Of a stretch of DNA of 53,983 nucleotides, positions 23,169 to 34,598 are shown in pieces. Below the pieces are notes generated by a model, which was given only the letters and a program-made list of their open reading frames with translations, did no database searches and was not told the origin of the DNA. Positions within the stretch are counted from its first letter, which is position 1, and each line of letters starts with the position of its first letter. Source of the stretch: an uncultured bacterium (lineage in GTDB: Bacteria > Eisenbacteria > RBG-16-71-46). The translations under genes and the position numbers were made by a program. The stretch lies in assembly GCA_964650245.1 (NCBI GenBank), contig CAZYQK010000002.1, positions 1 through 53,983 of the forward strand. The letters are read 5' to 3'.

Positions 23169-23331
23169 GGGAAGCCGCAGACTAGCACTCGGGCCGGGGC
23201 GTCACTACACTGCGGGGCGTCCGGGCCGCATCGCTCGCTCGGCCGGATGTTGACGCGCCCCTCGCCCGTCTGCCGGGGTCAATCTCAAGGCCGCTCGAGG
23301 AGCTGCCGATAATGGATGTCGGGGTCCCACC

Positions 23332-25209
23332 TTGATTCCAGCCCGCTTTCCCGCCCGCTTCGCCACCGCCGCGCTCACGCTGGCGCTGGTGTGCGCACCC
23401 GCCGCCGCTCGCGCCCAGGACTATCCGCGCCTCGGCCTCTACTGCTCGATGTACGGCGACGGATTCCCGCTGTGGGACGTGAACGGCGCCCTTCAAGATT
23501 CCGCGCTCGCCGCGATCGCGCGCTATCACCAGGTGGTCCTCGACGCGAGCCCGATCACCCCGTACCGGCCCGATGCCGCGGCCGCGCTGCGCGTCCGGCA
23601 TCCCGGGATCAAACTCTACGCCTACGTCACGGGACACAACATCTGGGGGGCCAACAACGCCGACAGCACGATCCACTACCCGACCCGCTACAACCACCTG
23701 GTGCGCAGCCTCGGCGGCTACCTCTACGACACCGCCGGCCGGCTGTTCGACGGTTCCGACGTCAACCTCGCGAAGCGGGACGCGAACGGCCGCTTCATCG
23801 TGGCCGAATCGCTCGCCGACCTCTTCATGAACGCCATCGTGACGACCGGCATCTGGGACGGCATGTTCCTCGACGTCTACTGCAAGTCCATCCTGTGGAT
23901 GGAAGGCCCGGGCGTCCAGATCGATTACGTTCGCGCCGGCTACCCCAGCCTCTCCGCGTTCGACCAGGCCTGGGGCGCGGGAGTGGACACGCTCGGCAAC
24001 CGGCTGAAGCGGCTCGCGGGGCCCTCGTTCGAGTTGATCGGGAACTGCGGGCAGAGCACCAACTACGGCTCGTTCAACGGCTGGATGCGCGAGAATTTTC
24101 CGTACCAGAACGGCGGCGACTGGTACCAGAACATGTATCGCATTCCGGGCGGCTACTTCGTGGACGACGCGCGGTTTCTCCCGCCGCAGAGCAACTACCT
24201 CTTCAGCGCGCTGGTGGCCAGCGACCCCTACGATCCGAACAACGCGCGCAAGGCGCGCCTGGGGCTCGCGAGCGCGGCGCTGGGGAAGGGTTACAGTGTG
24301 TTCGGACCTTCCGACCGCCGCTCGCGTCCGTTCCCGTACCACATGTGGTGGTACGACGAGTACGGCGTGGACCTCGCCACCGGCGGCGCGTCGGGTCTGA
24401 TCCAGCACACCGGGTGGCTAGGCCAGCCGCTCGGCGACTACTACCAGATGATCTGGATCGGGACCAATCCCGACGTCGTCACCAATTCCGATTTCGAAAC
24501 CGATGTCACGAGCGGCTGGCGATTCAGCGCCGGCGTCCCGGCGACTCTGATGCGCGACGTCGGGACCGCCGCCGTGGGGTCGGCGTCCGCGCGGGTGACG
24601 GTCTCGGCCGCGGGTTCCGTGTCCTGGGCCGTGGGGTTCGGCACCGTCGGCACGATGCCGCTGAGCGCTGGGCAGCCTTACTCGGCCAGCTTCTGGGCCA
24701 GGGCGTCCGCTCCACGCACCATCGTGGTCGCGGCCGGCCCCACCGCGTCGCTCCGCATCGCGATCACGACTTCGTGGAAGCGGTACCAGGTCACGCTTCT
24801 ACCCTACGCCGACGGGAACGCGGGTTTGCAGCTCTTCCTCGCGGAGGCGGCGGGCGACGTGTGGTTCGACGACGTGCACTTCCAGCCCGGCGTCACCAAC
24901 CTCTATCGGAGGGACTTCCAGAACGGGATCGTGCTGGTGAATCCGTCGAACGATGTGCTCACCGTGCCGCTCGAGCACCTCTATCGGAAGATTCGCGGCG
25001 TCTCGGACCCTGCGACCAACGACGGCACGATCGTGGCCCTGGTGACCGTGAACCCGAGCGACGCGCTGTTCCTGATCGGGGACGACCGCATTCCACCCGC
25101 GGCGATCATGGATCTCCAGACCGGGTCGGCCTGGCAGCCGCACCTACGCGCGCGGCGGCCGCAGGCAGGGGGCGGGTCTTCACAGCCGCCCCCGCCGCAC
25201 GACCCTTAA
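23332..25209 (+). CDS. secreted putative glycoside-hydrolase-like TIM-barrel protein with CBM4/9-like module
   Basis: The signal peptide is ATAALTLALVCAPAAARAQ. The N-terminal ~380 aa resemble the 'putative glycosyl hydrolase-like' (GHL) families as I recall them. The central segment NSDFETDVTSGW...FWARAS...WKRYQVTL looks like a CBM4_9 beta-sandwich. The TTG start is as given in the ORF track. Confidence 0.55.
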   Translation: MIPARFPARFATAALTLALVCAPAAARAQDYPRLGLYCSMYGDGFPLWDVNGALQDSALAAIARYHQVVLDASPITPYRPDAAAALRVRHPGIKLYAYVTGHNIWGANNADSTIHYPTRYNHLVRSLGGYLYDTAGRLFDGSDVNLAKRDANGRFIVAESLADLFMNAIVTTGIWDGMFLDVYCKSILWMEGPGVQIDYVRAGYPSLSAFDQAWGAGVDTLGNRLKRLAGPSFELIGNCGQSTNYGSFNGWMRENFPYQNGGDWYQNMYRIPGGYFVDDARFLPPQSNYLFSALVASDPYDPNNARKARLGLASAALGKGYSVFGPSDRRSRPFPYHMWWYDEYGVDLATGGASGLIQHTGWLGQPLGDYYQMIWIGTNPDVVTNSDFETDVTSGWRFSAGVPATLMRDVGTAAVGSASARVTVSAAGSVSWAVGFGTVGTMPLSAGQPYSASFWARASAPRTIVVAAGPTASLRIAITTSWKRYQVTLLPYADGNAGLQLFLAEAAGDVWFDDVHFQPGVTNLYRRDFQNGIVLVNPSNDVLTVPLEHLYRKIRGVSDPATNDGTIVALVTVNPSDALFLIGDDRIPPAAIMDLQTGSAWQPHLRARRPQAGGGSSQPPPPHDP

Positions 25210-25670
25210 GCGACCTCCTCCACCTCCGCCGTCCAGCTCACCGCGACCGCGCCTTTCAGCGAGGCCGCAGTCGGGCAGCGCTCCTGATGGCGCGCGAGCG
25301 CGCGATCCACCACCTCGCGCGTGCCGGGCGGGATCCGGAGCCGGTAGCGTATCCGCACCTCGGTCAGCACCGGCAGCCCGTCGCGCACCTCGTTCAAGCC
25401 CTCCACCTCGGCGCGGATCGCGTCGTCCTCGAGCTTCACCTGCCGCACCTCCAGCGCGGCGATCAGGGTGCCGAGCATTCAGCCGCCGGTGGCGGCCACG
25501 ATGTAGTCCACCGGCAGCGGCAGCGCGCGCGGTGGCACGAGCTTGAACAGCTCGACGATCGGGCCGTGCACGCCCATGTCCACGGTTTCACCGGTGGGAA
25601 GGTGCGCCCGGCGGTGGAGATGGCCGGTTTTCTCGAGCGTGACGCGGGAGACGTAGAGCGGGTCGGACAC
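25206..25670 (-). CDS. OsmC/Ohr-family peroxiredoxin-like protein with an in-frame TGA at the conserved first Cys position (selenocysteine candidate or nonsense mutation)
   Basis: ORFs 25479..25670 and 25206..25478 are contiguous and in the same frame, separated only by TGA (25481..25479). The joined product reads ...LPLPVDYIVAATGG[TGA]MLGTLIAAL...ARHQERCPTAASLKG. The TGA sits where OsmC-family proteins have ...aGC..., and the second conserved Cys (CP motif) is present. Confidence 0.6.
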
Positions 25671-25877
25671 GTGAGGGCCTCACTGGAGGAGGTGCGCTGC
25701 GCGTGCTGCGCCGTGGGCCGCTCCACCTTTGCGCTTGCGTCCCGCCCAGTCCATCCCTAAATTCGCCGCGCTTCCCGCACCCGGGAGGCGCCTTCGGGGA
25801 GCGCCGGGCGCGGCGCTCCATCGCGCTCGCCGCCACCGCCGGCGCTCCGGCCCGGCGCTTGGGCCCGCAGAGGATCC

Positions 25878-26813
25878 ATGGCTTCCACCACGGCGTTTCG
25901 AATCGCGGGCCGGCTGTCGCTCGCGACCACGCTGCTCATGTTCGGGCTGATGGTGCTGGGCTCGGTGGTGCGCAGCACAGGCTCCGGGCTCGCCTGCCCG
26001 GACTGGCCGCTGTGCCAGGGCCGGCTGATCCCGCCGTTTCAGTTCAACGTGCTCATCGAGTGGTTCCACCGGCTGGCCGCGCTGCTGGTGAGCGTGCTGC
26101 TGTTCGCCACGGCGGGGTGGATCCTGCTGCATCGCACGACTCGCTCGAAGCTGGGCGGGCTCGCGACGCTGGCGGTGGTGCTGCTCGCGGCGCAGGTGCT
26201 GCTCGGAGCGCTCACGGTGTGGAAGCTGCTCTCACCGGCGGTGGTGAGCGGCCATCTTGCGGTGGCGCTGCTGCTGTTCGCGACATTGCTCTCGCTCACG
26301 CTGATCGCGCGCGAGGAGTCCGAGCCCGACGCGGCTGAGCCGCGGCCGCTGCGCCCGCCGGGGCTGCTCGCCACGCTCGCGATCGCGACCGCGATGGCCT
26401 GCGGCCAGGCGCTGCTGGGCGGCATGGTGAGCACCAGCCACGCAGGGCTCGCGTGCCCCGACTGGCCGGGCTGTAACGGCCGGCTCTTTCCCCCGCTCGA
26501 GGGGCCCGAAGGCCTCCACATGCTTCATCGCTACGGCGCATACGCGCTCACCGCCATGATGATGCTGGTCGCGATCCGCGCGCGCACTGCTCCCGATGCC
26601 GCGGTGCGGGCGGGCGGGGCCATGGCGTTCGGCCTCACGCTCGCGCAGGTGGTGCTCGGGGTGTGCAACGTGCTGCTCGGGACCCCGCCCTGGCTCTCGG
26701 CGATGCACCTCGCGACCGCGGTGGCGATTCTCGCGCTGCTGCTGGTTGCGTCCTTCCGGGCCGCGGCGCTGCCCGCGCGCGAGGCGCGCGTGGCGCTGGT
26801 GGCGACCCCATGA
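25878..26813 (+). CDS. ctaA: heme A synthase (COX15/CtaA)
   Basis: Polytopic 311-aa ORF with GSGLACPDWPLCQG and HAGLACPDWPGCNG repeats and the EWFHR / HMLHRY histidine motifs. Confidence 0.85.
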   Translation: MASTTAFRIAGRLSLATTLLMFGLMVLGSVVRSTGSGLACPDWPLCQGRLIPPFQFNVLIEWFHRLAALLVSVLLFATAGWILLHRTTRSKLGGLATLAVVLLAAQVLLGALTVWKLLSPAVVSGHLAVALLLFATLLSLTLIAREESEPDAAEPRPLRPPGLLATLAIATAMACGQALLGGMVSTSHAGLACPDWPGCNGRLFPPLEGPEGLHMLHRYGAYALTAMMMLVAIRARTAPDAAVRAGGAMAFGLTLAQVVLGVCNVLLGTPPWLSAMHLATAVAILALLLVASFRAAALPAREARVALVATP

Positions 26814-27724
26814 GCCTCGCGCTGGCCGAGCCCTCGGTGCGGCGCCTGGCACTCGCCTATCTCGAGCTCACCAAGCCGCGCATCGTGACGCTGGTGGTGA
26901 TCACCGGCGTGCCCGCGCTCCTGATCGCGGCGCAGGGGATGCCGCCCGCCCACATCTTCTTCGGCACGCTGGCGGGCACCATGATGGCGGCGGCCTCGGC
27001 GGCGAGCTTCAACATGTACTTCGACCGCGATCTCGACGGGCTGATGCGCCGCACCGCGAGCCGCCCGCTGCCCTCCGGGCTGCTCCCGCCCTCCAGCGCG
27101 CTGGGTCTGGGCTGCGTGCTGGCGGGGCTCTCGTGGGTGACGCTGCTCACCTTCACCCACCTGCTGGCGGGGCTGATCGCGCTCGCGTCGATCTTCTACT
27201 ACGCCGTGGTCTACACGGTGTGGCTCAAGCGCCGCACGCCGCAGAACATCGTGATCGGGGGCGCCGCGGGTGCCGCGGCGCCGCTCATCGCGTGGGCCGC
27301 GGTGACGGGGGGCGTCAGCGTGCCGGCCGTGCTGCTCGCGGGCATCGTGTTCCTGTGGACGCCGCCGCATTTCTGGGCGCTCGCGCTCTACCGGCTCGAC
27401 GACTACGCGCACGCCCACGTGCCGATGCTGCCGGTGACGCACGGCGAAGACGAGACGCGGCGGCAGATCCTGCTCTACTCGCTGACCCTGGTGCCGGTGA
27501 CCCTGGCGCTGGTGCCGCTCGGGGTGGCGGGCTGGGTCTACGGCGTGCCGGCGGCGCTGCTGGGCGCGGCGTTCGTGTTCGGCGCGGCCCGGCTGCGGCG
27601 CTCGAAGAGCGGCGCGCACGCCACGCAGCTCTTCCGCTTCTCGATCCTCTACCTGTTCCTGCTGTTCGTGATGCTCACGCTGGACGCCGTGGTGCGGATC
27701 GCGGTGCGGGGCGGGGGGGCGTGA
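26810..27724 (+). CDS. ctaB: protoheme IX farnesyltransferase (heme O synthase)
   Basis: Internal ATG at 26810, overlapping the ctaA stop (ATGA). The translation contains YLELTKPRIVTLVVITG...NMYFDRDLDGLMRRTASRPLPSG...WTPPHFWALAL. Confidence 0.9.
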   Translation: MSLALAEPSVRRLALAYLELTKPRIVTLVVITGVPALLIAAQGMPPAHIFFGTLAGTMMAAASAASFNMYFDRDLDGLMRRTASRPLPSGLLPPSSALGLGCVLAGLSWVTLLTFTHLLAGLIALASIFYYAVVYTVWLKRRTPQNIVIGGAAGAAAPLIAWAAVTGGVSVPAVLLAGIVFLWTPPHFWALALYRLDDYAHAHVPMLPVTHGEDETRRQILLYSLTLVPVTLALVPLGVAGWVYGVPAALLGAAFVFGAARLRRSKSGAHATQLFRFSILYLFLLFVMLTLDAVVRIAVRGGGA

Positions 27725-27869
27725 GCGGGCGGCCCGGGAGCCGGGAGACCGCGCCGCGATCCACAATCCGGTTTCACTCCGGTGCTGCAGCGTGGTAGTT
27801 TTCCGCGCGACTTTTTGCCCGCGAGTGCGAGTCCAGGACCCGAGTCACCCGACCCCCACAGGGAAGCCC

Positions 27870-28892
27870 ATGGCCCGAAGGCCCCAACGCACACTGCTGC
27901 GGCTCGCCGCGTTGCTCGTGACGGTCCTGCCGCTCGCGATCGCCGGCTGCACGCTCCAGCAGTTCCCGCAGAGCACCCTCCACCCGCACTCCGACTACGC
28001 GAATAGCATCCAGTCGCTGCTCGAGCAGCTGACGTTCTGGGTGGTCGTCATCTTCGTGGTGGTCGAGGGACTCCTGATCTACGCGGTGATCCGGTTTCGC
28101 GCGCGCCCGGGAATGGCGGATCCCAAGCCGGTCCACGGCCACACCGGTCTCGAGATCGCCTGGACCATCGCACCCGCCGTGATCCTCGCGATCGTCGCCG
28201 TGCCGACCGTGCTCGCCATCTACCAGACCCAGGGCGGCGCGCCGGCGGGAGCGCTCCAGGTCAAGGTGACGGGGCACCAGTGGTGGTGGGAGTTCAATTA
28301 TCCGGAGCTGGGCGTGACCACGGGGAGCGAGCTGCACGTCCCGGTCAATCGCGCGATCGCGGTGGATCTCGAGTCCGCCGACGTGATTCACAGCTTCTGG
28401 TTCCCGGCGGTCGGCGGCAAGCGCGACGTGGTCCCGGGGCACACCAACCGCATGTGGTTCACGCCCGACAGCGTCGGAGTGTTTCCCGGACAGTGCGCCG
28501 AGCTGTGCGGCATCTCGCACGCAAACATGAAGATGATACTGGTGGTCGAGACCCGGGAGGCGTTCGACGCGTGGGTCGCGCGGCAGAAGCAGGCGCCAGC
28601 TGAGCCGGACTCGACCACGCTCGCCGGCCGGGGCCGGGCGATCTACGCCGAGAGCGCGTGCATCGGCTGCCACACCATCGAGGGCATTTCGGCCGGGATC
28701 ATCGGGCCGAATCTCACGCACGTCGGAAGCCGCATGACGCTCGCGGGCGCGATGTTCCCGAACGACAGCCGGCACCTCGCGAAGTGGATCGCCGAGCCGG
28801 ACAAGCAGAAGCCCGGGACGATGATGCTCAATCTCTCGTTGCCGCCCGACCAGGTCGAAGTGCTGGTCGCGTACCTCCAGAGCCTGAAGTAG
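27870..28892 (+). CDS. ctaC: cytochrome c oxidase subunit II with fused C-terminal cytochrome c (caa3 type), lipoprotein signal
   Basis: Internal ATG at 27870. It has the lipobox LAIAGC, the CuA site HSFWFP...CAELCGISHANM and the C-terminal heme-c motif CIGCH. Confidence 0.9.
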   Translation: MARRPQRTLLRLAALLVTVLPLAIAGCTLQQFPQSTLHPHSDYANSIQSLLEQLTFWVVVIFVVVEGLLIYAVIRFRARPGMADPKPVHGHTGLEIAWTIAPAVILAIVAVPTVLAIYQTQGGAPAGALQVKVTGHQWWWEFNYPELGVTTGSELHVPVNRAIAVDLESADVIHSFWFPAVGGKRDVVPGHTNRMWFTPDSVGVFPGQCAELCGISHANMKMILVVETREAFDAWVARQKQAPAEPDSTTLAGRGRAIYAESACIGCHTIEGISAGIIGPNLTHVGSRMTLAGAMFPNDSRHLAKWIAEPDKQKPGTMMLNLSLPPDQVEVLVAYLQSLK

Positions 28893-28921
28893 CCGCGCGG
28901 AACCACGAGAAAGGAAGGGTC

Positions 28922-30727
28922 ATGGCCACCACCGCCGCCGCCATTCACGCCCCGGCCAAGCTCGAGTCCGGGCTGTGGAGCTGGCTCACGACCGTGGACC
29001 ACAAGCGCATCGGGATCCTGTACGGGTCCACCGCGCTGTTCTTCTTCCTGCTCGGGGGGCTCGAGGCGCTCCTCATCCGGATCCAGCTCATGAAGCCGGA
29101 GAACACGCTGGTGAGCCCCGATTTCTTCAACCAGCTGTTCACCATGCACGGCACGACCATGATCTTCCTCGCCGTGATGCCGCTCTCGGCGAGCTTCTTC
29201 AACTTCATCGTGCCGCTTCAGATCGGCGCACGCGACGTCGCTTTTCCCCGCCTTAACGCGTTCAGCTACTGGGTGTTCCTTTCCGGCGGGATCTTCCTCA
29301 ACCTCAGCTTCTTCCTGGGCGGCGCGCCCAGCACGGGCTGGTTCGGCTACTCGAACCTGACCTCGAGCCAGTACGCGCCCGGGCACGGCGTGGACTTCTG
29401 GGCGATCGGCCTCCAGATCCTGGGCATCGCCTCGCTCGCCGCGGGGTTCAATTTCATCATCACCATCCTCAACCTGCGCGCGCCCGGGATGAAGCTCATG
29501 CGCATGCCGGTGTTCGTCTGGATGACGCTGGTCACATCGTTCCTCATCATCCTGGCCTTCCCGGTCATCACCGTGGCGCTGGTGTTCCTGCTGTTCGACC
29601 GTTTCACCGGCACCAATTTCTTCGTGCCGGCGGGCGGCGCCGATCCGCTGCTGTGGCAGCACCTGTTCTGGCTGTTCGGCCACCCGGAGGTCTACATCCT
29701 GATCCTGCCGGCGATGGGAATCGTCTCCGAGGTGCTGCCGACTTTCTCGCGCAAGCCGCTGTTCGGCTATCCGGTGGTGGTCTACTCGGGGATCTTCATC
29801 GGCTTCATGGGCTGGGGGGTGTGGAGCCACCACATGTTCTCGGTGGGCCTGGGGCCGCTCGCGGATTCCTTTTTCGCGCTCACCACCATGCTCATCGCGA
29901 TCCCGACCGGCGTGAAGATCTTCAACTGGATCGCCACCATCTGGGGCGGACGGGTGGAGCTCAAGACCGCGATGCTGTTCGCGGTCGGCTTCATCGCCCT
30001 GTTCATCATGGGCGGGCTCTCGGGCTTCATGCACGCCTCGCCGCCCGCCGATCTGCAGCAGACCGACACCTATTTCGTGGTCGCGCACATCCACTACGTT
30101 CTGTTCGGCGGAGCCATCATGGGGCTGTTCGCGGGGATCTACTACTGGTTCCCGAAGGTCACCGGTCGCTTCATGAGCGAAGGGCTCGGCAAGCTGCATT
30201 TCTGGACCACGATGATCGCCATGAACATCACGTTCTTCCCCATGCACTTCGTGGGCCTGCTGGGCATGCCGCGGCGAGTCTACACCTACGCGCCCAACAT
30301 GGGCTTCGACCAGATGAATTTCCTGTCCACCATCGGCGCTCTGCTGCTGGTCCCCTCGCTGCTGGTCTTCCTGTGGAACCTGATTTCGAGCGCGAAGAAC
30401 GGAAAGCCCGCGGGCAGCGACCCGTGGGGCGGGGCGACGCTCGAGTGGGCGATCCCCTCGCCGCCGCCGGCCCACAACTTCGGCAGCATTCCCGAGGTGA
30501 AGAGCCTCGATCCGCTGTGGCACAAGGAAGGGCGCGAGCTGGCGCTGGCCTCGAACCAGGCGCGCGGCCCGTTCCACATGCCGCCGCCCTCGTTCTGGCC
30601 GCTGGTGAGCGGGCTGGGCGTCACCCTGCTCATGAGCGGAATGATCTTCGGCTGGGCGGTCGGCATCCCGGGACTGGTGCTCACCCTCGCCGGCATCTAT
30701 TCCTGGGCGTTCGAGCCCTGCACGTGA
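28922..30727 (+). CDS. ctaD: cytochrome c oxidase subunit I
   Basis: Internal ATG at 28922 after GAAAGGAAGGG. The translation shows WLTTVDHKRIGILY, WFFGHPEVYILILP and HHMF motifs, with two extra C-terminal TM helices. Confidence 0.95.
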   Translation: MATTAAAIHAPAKLESGLWSWLTTVDHKRIGILYGSTALFFFLLGGLEALLIRIQLMKPENTLVSPDFFNQLFTMHGTTMIFLAVMPLSASFFNFIVPLQIGARDVAFPRLNAFSYWVFLSGGIFLNLSFFLGGAPSTGWFGYSNLTSSQYAPGHGVDFWAIGLQILGIASLAAGFNFIITILNLRAPGMKLMRMPVFVWMTLVTSFLIILAFPVITVALVFLLFDRFTGTNFFVPAGGADPLLWQHLFWLFGHPEVYILILPAMGIVSEVLPTFSRKPLFGYPVVVYSGIFIGFMGWGVWSHHMFSVGLGPLADSFFALTTMLIAIPTGVKIFNWIATIWGGRVELKTAMLFAVGFIALFIMGGLSGFMHASPPADLQQTDTYFVVAHIHYVLFGGAIMGLFAGIYYWFPKVTGRFMSEGLGKLHFWTTMIAMNITFFPMHFVGLLGMPRRVYTYAPNMGFDQMNFLSTIGALLLVPSLLVFLWNLISSAKNGKPAGSDPWGGATLEWAIPSPPPAHNFGSIPEVKSLDPLWHKEGRELALASNQARGPFHMPPPSFWPLVSGLGVTLLMSGMIFGWAVGIPGLVLTLAGIYSWAFEPCT

Positions 30728-31757: not shown

Positions 31758-31834
<77 letters not shown>

Positions 31835-33296: not shown

Positions 33297-34598
<1,302 letters not shown>

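What the first reader, a model, noticed from the sequence alone, without database searches (positions are those of the whole stretch)
25206..25670. OsmC-family peroxiredoxin with TGA exactly at the conserved first cysteine: selenocysteine candidate with a SECIS-like hairpin
Seen directly:
- Two ORFs (63 aa and 90 aa) are in the same frame and separated only by TGA at 25481..25479.
- Together they form one full-length OsmC fold, ...PVDYIVAATGG-[TGA]-MLGTLIAAL...RHQERCPTAASL.
- The TGA falls where OsmC/Ohr proteins carry their first conserved catalytic Cys (the aGC motif). The second conserved Cys (CP motif) is intact.
- Immediately downstream, the mRNA can fold into an imperfect extended hairpin spanning +4 to +51 (nt 25475..25428). 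It has helices CUCGG/UCGAG, CACC/GGUG and GCCGC/GCGGC (25460..25456 with 25446..25442). The 9-nt apical loop GCUGGAGGU starts 23 nt after the UGA.

Established: bacterial Sec insertion needs a hairpin directly 3' of the UGA. Sec normally replaces a redox-active Cys. As I recall, OsmC-like selenoproteins have been reported in bacterial selenoproteome surveys.

Alternative: a TGC/TGT-to-TGA nonsense mutation or a sequencing error.
Basis: partly seen in the sequence, partly recalled or inferred. Interest (0 to 1): 0.7.

Follow-up and report, generated by a model that had tools for sequence, protein, structure and literature searches.

The report
Selenocysteine-containing OsmC peroxidase gene
The in-frame TGA is almost certainly a selenocysteine codon in an OsmC-type peroxidase gene of a soil Eisenbacteria genome, kept with its RNA hairpin signal in about 80 species; this kind of selenoprotein is known, but this subfamily is called as two short genes in the public records sampled.

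Summary
One minus-strand gene (25670..25206) has an OsmC fold, and it is interrupted only by TGA at 25481..25479. That TGA falls on the column of the first catalytic Cys.

The TGA is not a mutation or a sequencing error:
- 79 of 80 species-level genomes carry TGA at this column and one carries TGC. They come from Eisenbacteria, Gemmatimonadota and Acidobacteriota.
- 69 of 72 metagenome contigs also carry TGA.
- Rare Cys orthologues sit in the same gene neighbourhood.

A compact hairpin lies 25 nt after the UGA (25460..25442). It has 6-7 conserved base pairs and a U-GGA-G loop.
- It is intact in 134 of 136 distinct TGA sequences.
- Two of its pairs covary.
- Synonymous codon variation is suppressed exactly there.
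- It meets every criterion of the published bacterial SECIS model.
- It is degraded in 7 of 10 Cys forms.

Neighbouring genes stop at TGA, so the recoding is specific to this site. The Sec machinery (selA, selB, selC, selD) could not be checked. It is absent from the 54-kb window and from the fetched flanks.

OsmC-like selenoproteins have been known since 2005. This clade fails the NCBIfam OsmC (seleno)protein model (26.6 bits against a cut-off of 95). I class it as a new member of a known kind, of moderate interest.

The parts
25206..25670 (-). Complete selenoprotein gene: GTG start, 153 sense codons plus one UGA (Sec64), TAA stop. The product is 154 aa with an OsmC/Ohr fold.
   Evidence: Orthologue alignments span residues 1-152 in one frame. 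AlphaFold model of the 72%-identical Cys orthologue P0001: pLDDT 95. Its best PDB matches are Ohr and OsmC, with TM 0.67-0.78 for the top hits.
25479..25481 (-). In-frame UGA read as selenocysteine (residue 64), at the position of the first (peroxidatic) Cys of OsmC/Ohr.
   Evidence: TGA in 79 of 80 GTDB species loci and TGC in one. 69 TGA against 3 TGC in metagenome contigs. Cys in the full-length homologues. Aligned with the OsmC 1ukk Cys.
25442..25460 (-). Core SECIS-like hairpin. 5' arm 25460..25454, loop UGGAG 25453..25449, 3' arm 25448..25442. There are 25 nt between the UGA and the loop.
   Evidence: RNAalifold consensus and pair counts. Pair 33-41 is AU 52 / GC 20 / GU 6. Pair 29-45 is GC 59 / GU 14 / CG 5. 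All six core pairs are present in 134 of 136 distinct TGA forms. MFE is -12.6 kcal/mol, z = -3.2. Synonymous entropy is lowest at codons +7 to +12.
25428..25475 (-). They can form in this window but are not conserved.
   Evidence: They form in the single-sequence fold. They are paired in only 57% and 63% of cells over 78 orthologues and are absent from the consensus structure.
25275..25277 (-). TGC codon of the second redox Cys (C132, 'RCPTA' motif), the presumed resolving cysteine.
   Evidence: Invariant in the alignments. It aligns with the 'GCP' Cys of OsmC 1ukk.
25678..25681 (-). GAGG, a Shine-Dalgarno-like motif 7 nt upstream of the GTG start.
   Evidence: Read directly from the sequence. 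The N-terminus MSDPLYVSR matches the homologues' MSEPLYVSR.
25878..26813 (+). Context only: ctaA (COX15 haem A synthase), transcribed divergently and followed by ctaB and cox genes. This neighbourhood is conserved in the Eisenbacteria clade and identifies the orthologues.
   Evidence: The gene ends in TGA.

Best explanation
This is one gene for a selenocysteine-containing OsmC/Ohr-type thiol peroxidase.

Proposed mechanism:
- During translation the UGA at codon 64 is not read as stop.
- A short G+C-rich hairpin begins 19 nt after the UGA. Its U-GGA-G loop starts 25 nt after the UGA.
- The hairpin acts as a bacterial SECIS element. It recruits SelB carrying Sec-tRNA(Sec) to the ribosome (inferred).
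- Selenocysteine is therefore placed where OsmC/Ohr enzymes have their peroxide-attacking cysteine.
- Cys132 in the 'RCPTA' motif would then resolve the selenenic acid as a selenenylsulfide (inferred from OsmC/Ohr chemistry).

Shown here:
- the TGA/Cys pairing;
- conservation of the TGA and of both halves of the gene in one frame;
- the OsmC fold;
- the conserved, covarying hairpin that fits the SECIS model;
- selection on the RNA that is specific to TGA forms;
- normal use of TGA as a stop codon in neighbouring genes.

Inferred, not shown:
- the presence of selA, selB, selC and selD in the genome;
- actual incorporation of selenium;
- peroxidase activity and its substrate.
For: 1. The joined ORF is OsmC (Pfam 49.9 bits). 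The orthologue model has pLDDT 95, and its top PDB matches are Ohr and OsmC.
2. The TGA aligns with Cys in the 19 full-length homologues P0001-P0019 and with the OsmC 1ukk catalytic Cys.
3. TGA is present in 79 of 80 species-representative genomes down to 57% identity. It is present in 69 of 72 metagenome contigs.
4. About 97 of the best 120 protein clusters are 88-97-aa truncated gene calls, which fits a TGA at the same column; this was confirmed directly for the clusters whose contigs were fetched.
5. The Cys orthologue P0008 lies in the identical ctaA-ctaB-cox / GHL15-CBM / SQS_PSY neighbourhood.
6. Upstream codons show invariant amino acids with free synonymous variation. Examples are GVHG and PVD, with Hsyn 0.6-1.8. 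This indicates that both parts are translated in this frame.
7. Hairpin conservation:
   - six core pairs in 134 of 136 distinct TGA forms;
   - compensatory changes at two pairs;
   - the slid-partner controls fall to 6-57% paired, against 90.8% for the real structure.
8. Synonymous freezing at the hairpin. Leu+9 is CTG in 134 of 137 sequences (Hsyn 0.17). Val+11 is GTG in 105 of 105. Other Leu and Val codons show Hsyn 1.2-1.9.
9. The bSECIS model criteria from PMC13188914 are all met:
   - stem of 7-8 bp (4-16 required);
   - loop of 3-5 nt (3-9 required);
   - loop pattern N1-G-G-N-N2 with N1 and N2 able to pair;
   - spacing of 25 nt (16-37 required);
   - MFE of -12.6 kcal/mol (at most -7.5 required).
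10. In 10 Cys forms only 3 keep all six pairs, and 8 use CTC, which destroys the GG loop. Fisher p = 5e-10 and 2e-8. These tests count sequences, not independent events; the Cys forms make 5 clades.
11. ctaA, ctaB, cox1, enolase and SQS_PSY end in TGA at the lengths of their homologues. The genome therefore uses the standard code.
12. A distant subclade (L175) has TGA followed by CTG rather than ATG and keeps the same hairpin.
Against: - No tRNA-Sec was found in the window or in 60 related loci.
The machinery is therefore unverified for this genome and for Eisenbacteria in general.
- The paper library holds nothing on selenocysteine in Eisenbacteria.
- Two TGA-bearing species (L044, L057) have a UCGCC loop without the GG.
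- There is no Rfam match. Whether Rfam holds a model suited to an in-frame bacterial SECIS was not checked, so this absence carries little weight.
- No experimental data exist.
Confidence: 0.9

Rival explanations
1. Pseudogene, nonsense mutation (TGC/TGT to TGA) or sequencing error. The protein would be truncated or dead.
For: A single in-frame stop at a Cys codon is one mutation away from TGC. Gene callers split the gene.
Against: - The same TGA occurs in 79 of 80 species genomes and in 136 distinct sequences from independent assemblies.
- There are no other disruptions.
- Amino acids are conserved, with synonymous variation, on both sides of the TGA.
- An identical protein sits on two further independent contigs.
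Confidence: 0.01
2. A truly split gene. Translation stops at UGA and restarts at the adjacent AUG (UGAAUG). This gives two polypeptides that assemble into an OsmC fold without the first catalytic residue.
For: TGA is followed directly by ATG in all 78 aligned orthologues. The public gene calls sampled give a 63-aa and an 89-90-aa ORF.
Against: - The Met is equally conserved after Cys in single-chain Cys forms ('GCMLGTL'). It is therefore a protein residue, not a start signal.
- The split would remove exactly the catalytic residue.
- Subclade L175 has TGA CTG GTC and no adjacent ATG.
- The conserved hairpin, with its SECIS-type loop at SECIS spacing, decays when TGA becomes TGC. A reinitiation model does not predict this.
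Confidence: 0.03
3. Site-specific UGA recoding to something other than Sec. One route is Cys inserted by a tRNA(Sec)-mimicking tRNA(Cys). Another is near-cognate read-through stimulated by the hairpin.
For: The Sec machinery is not demonstrated here. SelC*-type tRNA(Cys) that mimic tRNA(Sec) and may act as opal suppressors are documented in other phyla (PMC5389517).
Against: - selC* tRNAs were reported in anaerobic Firmicutes, Thermodesulfobacteria, Nitrospirae and Proteobacteria, not in these lineages.
- The hairpin matches the standard bSECIS model.
- Repeated TGA-to-TGC switches with decay of the hairpin are the usual Sec/Cys pattern.
- Acidobacteria are known to have selenoproteins (PMC1794560).
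Confidence: 0.05

Closest known systems
OsmC-like selenoprotein family of Zhang, Fomenko and Gladyshev 2005 (Sargasso Sea; COG1765/PF02566, 'UxxT'). It is also listed in the reviews PMC9312934 and PMC13188914.
   Same: It has an OsmC-fold protein with Sec replacing the first redox Cys. It has Cys-containing homologues. A bacterial SECIS hairpin with G in a small apical loop lies directly downstream of the UGA.
   Different: - The motif here is U-M-L-G-T (UxxxT), not UxxT.
- The hosts are soil and sediment Eisenbacteria, Gemmatimonadota and Acidobacteriota rather than marine plankton.
- Sec is the dominant state here (about 95% of species). In the 2005 survey Sec forms were rare and Cys forms widespread.
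- Direct sequence comparison with AACY01145085 or MCS5647933.1 was not possible.
NCBIfam NF041052 'OsmC-related (seleno)protein'
   Same: It is the best-scoring NCBIfam model for this protein and for 20 of 21 homologues scanned. It is a curated OsmC clade that includes selenoproteins.
   Different: The score is 26.6 bits (20 for P0001) against a cut-off of 95, so this protein is not a member. It is a separate OsmC subfamily.
OsmC (E. coli, T. thermophilus 1ukk) and Ohr (for example 6ebg, 1n2f) two-Cys thiol peroxidases
   Same: - The fold is the same, with TM 0.67-0.78 for the top hits.
- The first redox residue sits in the long central helix.
- The second sits at the helix break in a 'CP' motif.
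   Different: - It has Sec instead of the first Cys.
- Sequence identity is only 12-24%.
- It scores below the cut-offs of the OsmC (TIGR03562, 16 against 86 bits) and Ohr (TIGR03561, 12 against 89 bits) subfamily models.
- Its activity and reductant are unknown.
E. coli fdhF-type bacterial SECIS / bSECIS consensus model (bSECISearch)
   Same: It lies in frame, directly 3' of the UGA. It has a short upper stem, a small loop with G-G at loop positions 2-3 flanked by a pairable N1/N2, spacing within 16-37 nt, and a stable fold.
   Different: - It is very compact: 7-8 bp and no conserved lower stem or bulge.
- It is almost invariant in sequence across three phyla because it overlaps conserved codons (G-A-L-E-V-R).
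- SelB binding is untested.

Membership tests
Bacterial selenoprotein gene (Sec-UGA plus bSECIS) | In-frame UGA that aligns with Cys in homologues (Sec/Cys pair) | tested here: met
   Cys at this column in the full-length homologues P0001-P0019 and in 10 fetched TGC loci.
Bacterial selenoprotein gene (Sec-UGA plus bSECIS) | TGA conserved at the same column in orthologues of other species | tested here: met
   79 of 80 GTDB species representatives. 69 of 72 metagenome contigs.
Bacterial selenoprotein gene (Sec-UGA plus bSECIS) | Hairpin fitting the bSECIS model: 4-16 bp stem, 3-9 nt loop, G in the first two loop positions, 16-37 nt from the UGA, MFE at most -7.5 kcal/mol (PMC13188914) | tested here: met
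   The stem is 7-8 bp and the loop is U-GGA-G. The spacing is 25 nt. MFE is -12.6 kcal/mol.
Bacterial selenoprotein gene (Sec-UGA plus bSECIS) | The hairpin is maintained by selection on the RNA (covariation, synonymous constraint, loss in Cys forms) | tested here: met
   Sequences are related, so the counts are not independent events.
Bacterial selenoprotein gene (Sec-UGA plus bSECIS) | selA, selB, selC (tRNA-Sec) and selD present in the same genome | not testable with these tools
   None in the 54-kb window or in 1.36 Mb of window plus flanks. Whole genomes could not be fetched.
Bacterial selenoprotein gene (Sec-UGA plus bSECIS) | Selenium actually incorporated at the UGA | not testable with these tools
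   This needs an experiment (75Se labelling or mass spectrometry).
OsmC/Ohr superfamily (Pfam PF02566) | Pfam OsmC hit above the gathering score | tested here: met
   49.9 bits against 27.5, residues 51-146.
OsmC/Ohr superfamily (Pfam PF02566) | OsmC/Ohr fold with two redox residues, one in the central helix and one in the C-terminal 'CP' helix break | tested here: met
   Model of the 72%-identical orthologue P0001: pLDDT 95. C64 lies in helix 53-75 and C132 between helices 118-131 and 133-138. The top PDB matches are Ohr and OsmC. The window protein itself could not be submitted.
OsmC/Ohr superfamily (Pfam PF02566) | Hydroperoxide reductase activity | not testable with these tools
   This needs an experiment.
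NCBIfam NF041052 OsmC-related (seleno)protein | Score at or above the curated cut-off (95 bits) | tested here: not met
   26.6 bits for the window protein. The orthologue P0001 scored 20 bits, and the best E-value among the 21 homologues scanned was 4.2e-06.
OsmC subfamily TIGR03562 / Ohr subfamily TIGR03561 | Score at or above the curated cut-off (85.8 and 88.85 bits) | tested here: not met
   16.1 and 12.3 bits.
OsmC-like selenoprotein of the 2005 Sargasso survey | UxxT redox motif; COG1765 | tested here: inconclusive
   The motif here is U-M-L-G-T (UxxxT). COG1765 membership and comparison with the published sequences could not be run.

The most novel reading that the evidence does not exclude
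The conserved UGA plus hairpin might not insert selenocysteine. It might be a site-specific recoding of another kind, in lineages (Eisenbacteria, many Gemmatimonadota) for which no Sec machinery has been documented. One possibility is Cys delivered by a tRNA(Sec)-mimicking tRNA through a SelB-like factor. Another is hairpin-stimulated read-through. A milder and much more likely reading is this: it is a previously uncatalogued OsmC selenoprotein subfamily, Sec is its ancestral state, and it is mis-split into two ORFs in the public annotations sampled.
Probability: 0.04. Interest if true: 0.75.

Novelty: new member of a known kind. Interest (0 to 1): 0.35.

Why it matters
- The public records sampled call this gene as a 63-aa orphan plus an 89-90-aa 'OsmC family protein'. 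The active-site residue and the N-terminal third of the enzyme are therefore missing from the databases for roughly 100 protein clusters.
- Recognising it adds a selenoprotein to Candidatus Eisenbacteria. The paper library holds no report of selenium use in that phylum.
- It implies Sec decoding, and therefore a need for selenium, in widespread soil Gemmatimonadota and Acidobacteriota.
- It gives a compact, nearly invariant SECIS (GCGCAC-UGGAG-GUGCGC) that could serve as a search seed and as a minimal model element.
- The family is unusual in being about 95% Sec, with at least five apparent Sec-to-Cys reversions. This makes it a convenient natural series for asking what Sec provides in an OsmC/Ohr peroxidase.
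- It does not reveal a new mechanism.

Tried and rejected
- **tRNA-Sec search.** ARAGORN on the window and 60 loci found none.
- **SelA, SelB and SelD search.** Inspection of L039 showed these are IF2 in a rimP-nusA-infB operon.
- **Rfam.** The gathering scan of the window and a permissive scan of 25380..25520 gave no SECIS or other credible match.
- **Sec/Cys scan of all fetched DNA.** I took 7,729 TGA-centred windows from 1.63 Mb and compared them with 10,766 ORFs. Only the OsmC gene was recovered. The remaining hits are shadow ORFs of high-GC DNA.
They are not conserved.
- **Functional link to the ctaA/ctaB/cox operon.** I rejected this as a general feature. The synteny holds only in the Eisenbacteria clade, and Gemmatimonadota have rimP-nusA-infB downstream.
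- **'Trp' at the Sec column in P0020 and P0024.** For P0024 this is an artefact: the source pipeline translated TGA as Trp. P0020 has the same 'GAWL' context but its DNA was not fetched.
- **98-nt 'tRNA-Ile' near the gene in L031.** Rfam does not support it.
- **Structure prediction of the window protein with C at position 64.** The orthologue P0001 was used instead.
- **Literature.** Searches for Eisenbacteria or Gemmatimonadota selenoproteins found nothing relevant.
Full report
**1. Observation**

The minus strand of 25670..25206 reads as one frame of 155 codons (154 residues plus the TAA stop) with a single internal stop, TGA at 25481..25479.

With Cys put in place of the stop, the 154-aa product matches Pfam OsmC (PF02566). 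The match has E 4.6e-13 and 49.9 bits against a cut-off of 27.5. It also aligns with Thermus thermophilus OsmC (1ukk). In that alignment the TGA column is the Cys of 'AHAGCFSMAL', and C132 is the Cys of 'EGCPVSRAL'.

A GAGG motif lies 7 nt upstream of the GTG. The N-terminus matches that of the homologues.

**2. Is the TGA real and conserved?**

A search of the 5.8-billion-protein collection gave a striking pattern.
- About 20 full-length relatives of roughly 153 aa were found, at 58-72% identity.
- About 97 separate clusters of 88-97 aa were found, at 74-100% identity (75-84% for most). They cover only the C-terminal 57-58% of the query, which fits gene calls that start at the Met after the TGA.

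The full-length relatives P0001-P0019 have Cys at the TGA column ('GGCMLGTL').

Contigs carrying the short forms show a 63-aa ORF ending exactly where the 89-90-aa ORF starts.

A scan of one genome per GTDB species returned 80 loci. They come from Candidatus Eisenbacteria, Gemmatimonadota and Acidobacteriota, plus one MAG labelled Limnocylindria.
- The tblastn alignments span residues 1-152 in one frame.
- The codon at the Cys column is TGA in 79 loci and TGC in one, L038.

A metagenome scan seeded with Cys forms still returned 69 TGA and 3 TGC.

Two 'full-length' clusters with Trp at this column (P0020, P0024) were examined. For P0024 the DNA has TGA, and the Trp comes from a pipeline that used a TGA=Trp code. 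P0020 was not checked.

Across 137 distinct TGA genes, upstream residues such as G-V-H-G and P-V-D are invariant while their third codon positions vary freely. The upstream piece is therefore translated in this frame and is under purifying selection.

A nonsense mutation, a pseudogene or a sequencing error cannot explain this.

**3. Is the genome recoded as a whole?**

No. ctaA, ctaB, cox1, enolase and the squalene/phytoene synthase gene in the window all end in TGA. Where homologue lengths were returned (ctaA, ctaB, the synthase gene), the lengths agree. The recoding is specific to this site.

**4. The RNA element**

I aligned 78 orthologous stretches running from -6 to +72 around the TGA (A3).

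RNAalifold finds one consensus helix.
- It pairs alignment columns 29-35 with 39-45.
- In the window this corresponds to 25460..25454 paired with 25448..25442, with loop UGGAG at 25453..25449.

Pair counts:
- Columns 31-43, 32-42 and 34-40 are invariant.
- Pair 33-41 is AU in 52 sequences, GC in 20 and GU in 6.
- Pair 29-45 is GC in 59, GU in 14 and CG in 5.
- Pair 30-44 is CG in 69 and UG in 8.
- Overall 90.8% of cells are paired. Sliding the 3' partner by 1-3 columns drops this to 6-57%.

The 33-41 covariation links a synonymous site (GCA or GCG, Ala) to a non-synonymous one (GUG Val or GCG Ala). The 29-45 covariation links GGC/GCC (Gly/Ala) to CGC/CGG (Arg).

Codon-level analysis of the 137 distinct TGA genes shows that synonymous variation collapses only here.
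- Leu+9 is CTG in 134 of 137 (entropy 0.17).
- Val+11 is GTG in 105 of 105.
- Gly+7 is GGC in 108 of 121.
- Ala+8 prefers the otherwise rare GCA.
- Other Leu and Val codons in the gene have entropies of 1.2-1.9.

The published bacterial SECIS model requires four things (PMC13188914):
- a stem of 4-16 bp;
- a loop of 3-9 nt;
- a G in the first two loop positions, usually in the pattern N1-G-[G/U]-N-N2 with N1 and N2 able to pair;
- 16-37 nt between the UGA and the loop, and an MFE of at most -7.5 kcal/mol.

This hairpin has 7-8 bp, the loop U-G-G-A-G/A, 25 nt of spacing and an MFE of -12.6 kcal/mol (z = -3.2 against shuffles). All criteria are met.

**5. Control with Cys forms**

I fetched DNA for 10 distinct TGC forms. 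One of them, P0008, lies in exactly the same ctaA-ctaB-cox / GHL15-CBM / SQS_PSY neighbourhood as the window gene. It is therefore a true orthologue.

The contrast with the TGA forms is clear.
- Among 136 distinct TGA forms, 134 keep all six core pairs and 134 keep the UGG of the loop.
- Among the 10 TGC forms, only 3 keep all six pairs.
- Eight of the 10 use CTC for the Leu, which removes the GG.
- Fisher p values are 2e-8 and 5e-10. These tests count sequences, not events.

A representative Cys-form hairpin folds at only -4.3 kcal/mol.

A quick neighbour-joining tree places the Cys forms in five separate clades nested among TGA forms. This suggests that Sec is the older state, with repeated replacement by Cys followed by decay of the hairpin.

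**6.

- The outer helices (CUCGG/UCGAG and CACC/GGUG) can form in this window. Across the family they are paired in only 57% and 63% of cells, and they are absent from the consensus structure.
- The whole 62-nt region does not fold better than shuffled sequence (z = -0.31). Only the core hairpin does.
- The loop is 3-5 nt, not 9 nt.

**7. Rival readings**

*Termination and reinitiation.* UGAAUG suggests a termination-reinitiation pair. Four points argue against it.
- The Met is just as conserved after Cys in single-chain forms.
- A distant subclade has TGA CTG GTC and keeps the same hairpin.
- A split would delete precisely the catalytic residue.
- Reinitiation does not predict a SECIS-type hairpin that decays in Cys forms.

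*Non-Sec decoding.* Decoding by something other than Sec, for example a tRNA(Sec)-mimicking tRNA(Cys), cannot be excluded without the genome. Such tRNAs are documented in PMC5389517, but nothing here points to it.

**8. What could not be shown**

- No tRNA-Sec and no selA, selB or selD were found in the window or in 1.36 Mb of window plus related flanks. These genes need not be linked to the selenoprotein gene, and whole genomes could not be fetched.
- Acidobacteria are known to have selenoproteins (PMC1794560).
- For Eisenbacteria the paper library holds nothing.
- No other Sec/Cys pair was found in the fetched DNA.

**9. The protein**

An AlphaFold model of the 72%-identical Cys orthologue P0001 is confident (pLDDT 95, pTM 0.87). 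Its best PDB matches are Ohr and OsmC structures, with TM 0.67-0.78 for the top hits.

Residue 64 lies in the long central helix (53-75). C132 lies at the break between helices 118-131 and 133-138. From my own knowledge of OsmC/Ohr structures, these are the positions of the peroxidatic and resolving cysteines.

The inferred chemistry is this: Sec64 attacks a hydroperoxide, and C132 resolves the selenenic acid.

**10. Comparison with what is known**

OsmC-like selenoproteins were described in 2005 from the Sargasso Sea. They were assigned to COG1765 with the motif UxxT and a bacterial SECIS with G in a small loop (PMC1088965). They are listed in later reviews. The kind is therefore known.

This clade differs in several ways.
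- Its motif is U-M-L-G-T.
- It scores 26.6 bits against the cut-off of 95 for NCBIfam NF041052 'OsmC-related (seleno)protein'. It is also far below the OsmC and Ohr subfamily cut-offs.
- It lives in soil and sediment phyla.
- It is about 95% Sec.
- The source names returned for the short forms are 'OsmC family protein', OsmC/OhrA-type reductase or 'hypothetical protein', for 89-90-aa products.

**11. Context**

In the Eisenbacteria clade the gene is divergent from ctaA-ctaB-cox. It is followed by a GHL15/CBM protein gene and a squalene/phytoene synthase gene. In Gemmatimonadota it sits upstream of rimP-nusA-infB. The neighbourhood therefore does not indicate a functional link.

The window's closest relatives are Candidatus Eisenbacteria MAGs: 77-78% identity for this protein and 82% for CtaA.

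**12. Verdict**

This is a real selenocysteine-type recoding site in an OsmC-family peroxidase gene with a compact, conserved SECIS. My confidence in that reading is about 0.9. It is a new, unannotated member of a known kind of selenoprotein, and its interest is moderate.

Noticed in passing
L175:283-768 (protein P0024); also P0020: P0024 shows Trp at the Sec column, but its DNA has TGA. The source pipeline evidently translated TGA as Trp, and the locus does not translate to the stored protein under table 11. P0020 has the same 'GAWL' context, but its DNA was not fetched. In this subclade the codon after TGA is CTG, not ATG, and the hairpin GGCGCGC-UGGAG-GCGCGC is kept.
   Followed up: yes
L044:10090-10155 and L057:10190-10255: Two Gemmatimonadota MAGs keep the TGA but encode G-A-L-A-V-R. 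The loop is UCGCC with no GG. The stem is kept in L044 and has one mismatch in L057. In L044 the 5' arm GGUGCAC can also pair with a downstream GUGCACC. Whether these use a different SECIS is unexplained.
   Followed up: partly
L023 (DASQFU010000140.1, labelled Candidatus Limnocylindria): This contig has the Eisenbacteria-type neighbourhood: ctaA at 69%, ctaB at 71% and the GHL15-CBM gene at 58% identity to the window. It may be a mis-binned or mislabelled contig.
   Followed up: no
window 25878..30727 (+), 31758..31834 (-), 33297..34586 (-): A ctaA-ctaB-cox2-cox1-cox3 oxidase cluster, a tRNA-Met(CAT) and an enolase gene lie beside the gene. This order is shared across the Eisenbacteria loci but not the Gemmatimonadota loci, where rimP-nusA-infB lies downstream instead.
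   Followed up: partly
L031:6347-6444 (-): ARAGORN calls a 98-nt 'tRNA-Ile(GAT)' with the anticodon at position 38. A permissive Rfam scan finds no tRNA there. It is probably a false positive inside a coding region.
   Followed up: yes
window 23316..25760 (+): An 814-aa ORF runs antisense across the whole OsmC gene and its neighbour. Many similar long overlapping ORFs occur in the window. These are shadow ORFs of 70% G+C DNA, not genes.
   Followed up: partly
window 25455..25457 (-), codon +8 after the UGA, across alignment A3: Across the family the Ala codon in the 5' arm is GCA in 89 of 136 sequences, although GCA is rare elsewhere in the gene. It tracks GUG against GCG at codon +11. The window itself has GCG paired with GUG as a G.U wobble.
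   Followed up: yes
loci L038, L089, L094, L137, L169-L174: The Cys forms fall into five separate clades nested among TGA forms in a quick neighbour-joining tree. This suggests repeated Sec-to-Cys replacement. The tree is rough and has no support values.
   Followed up: partly
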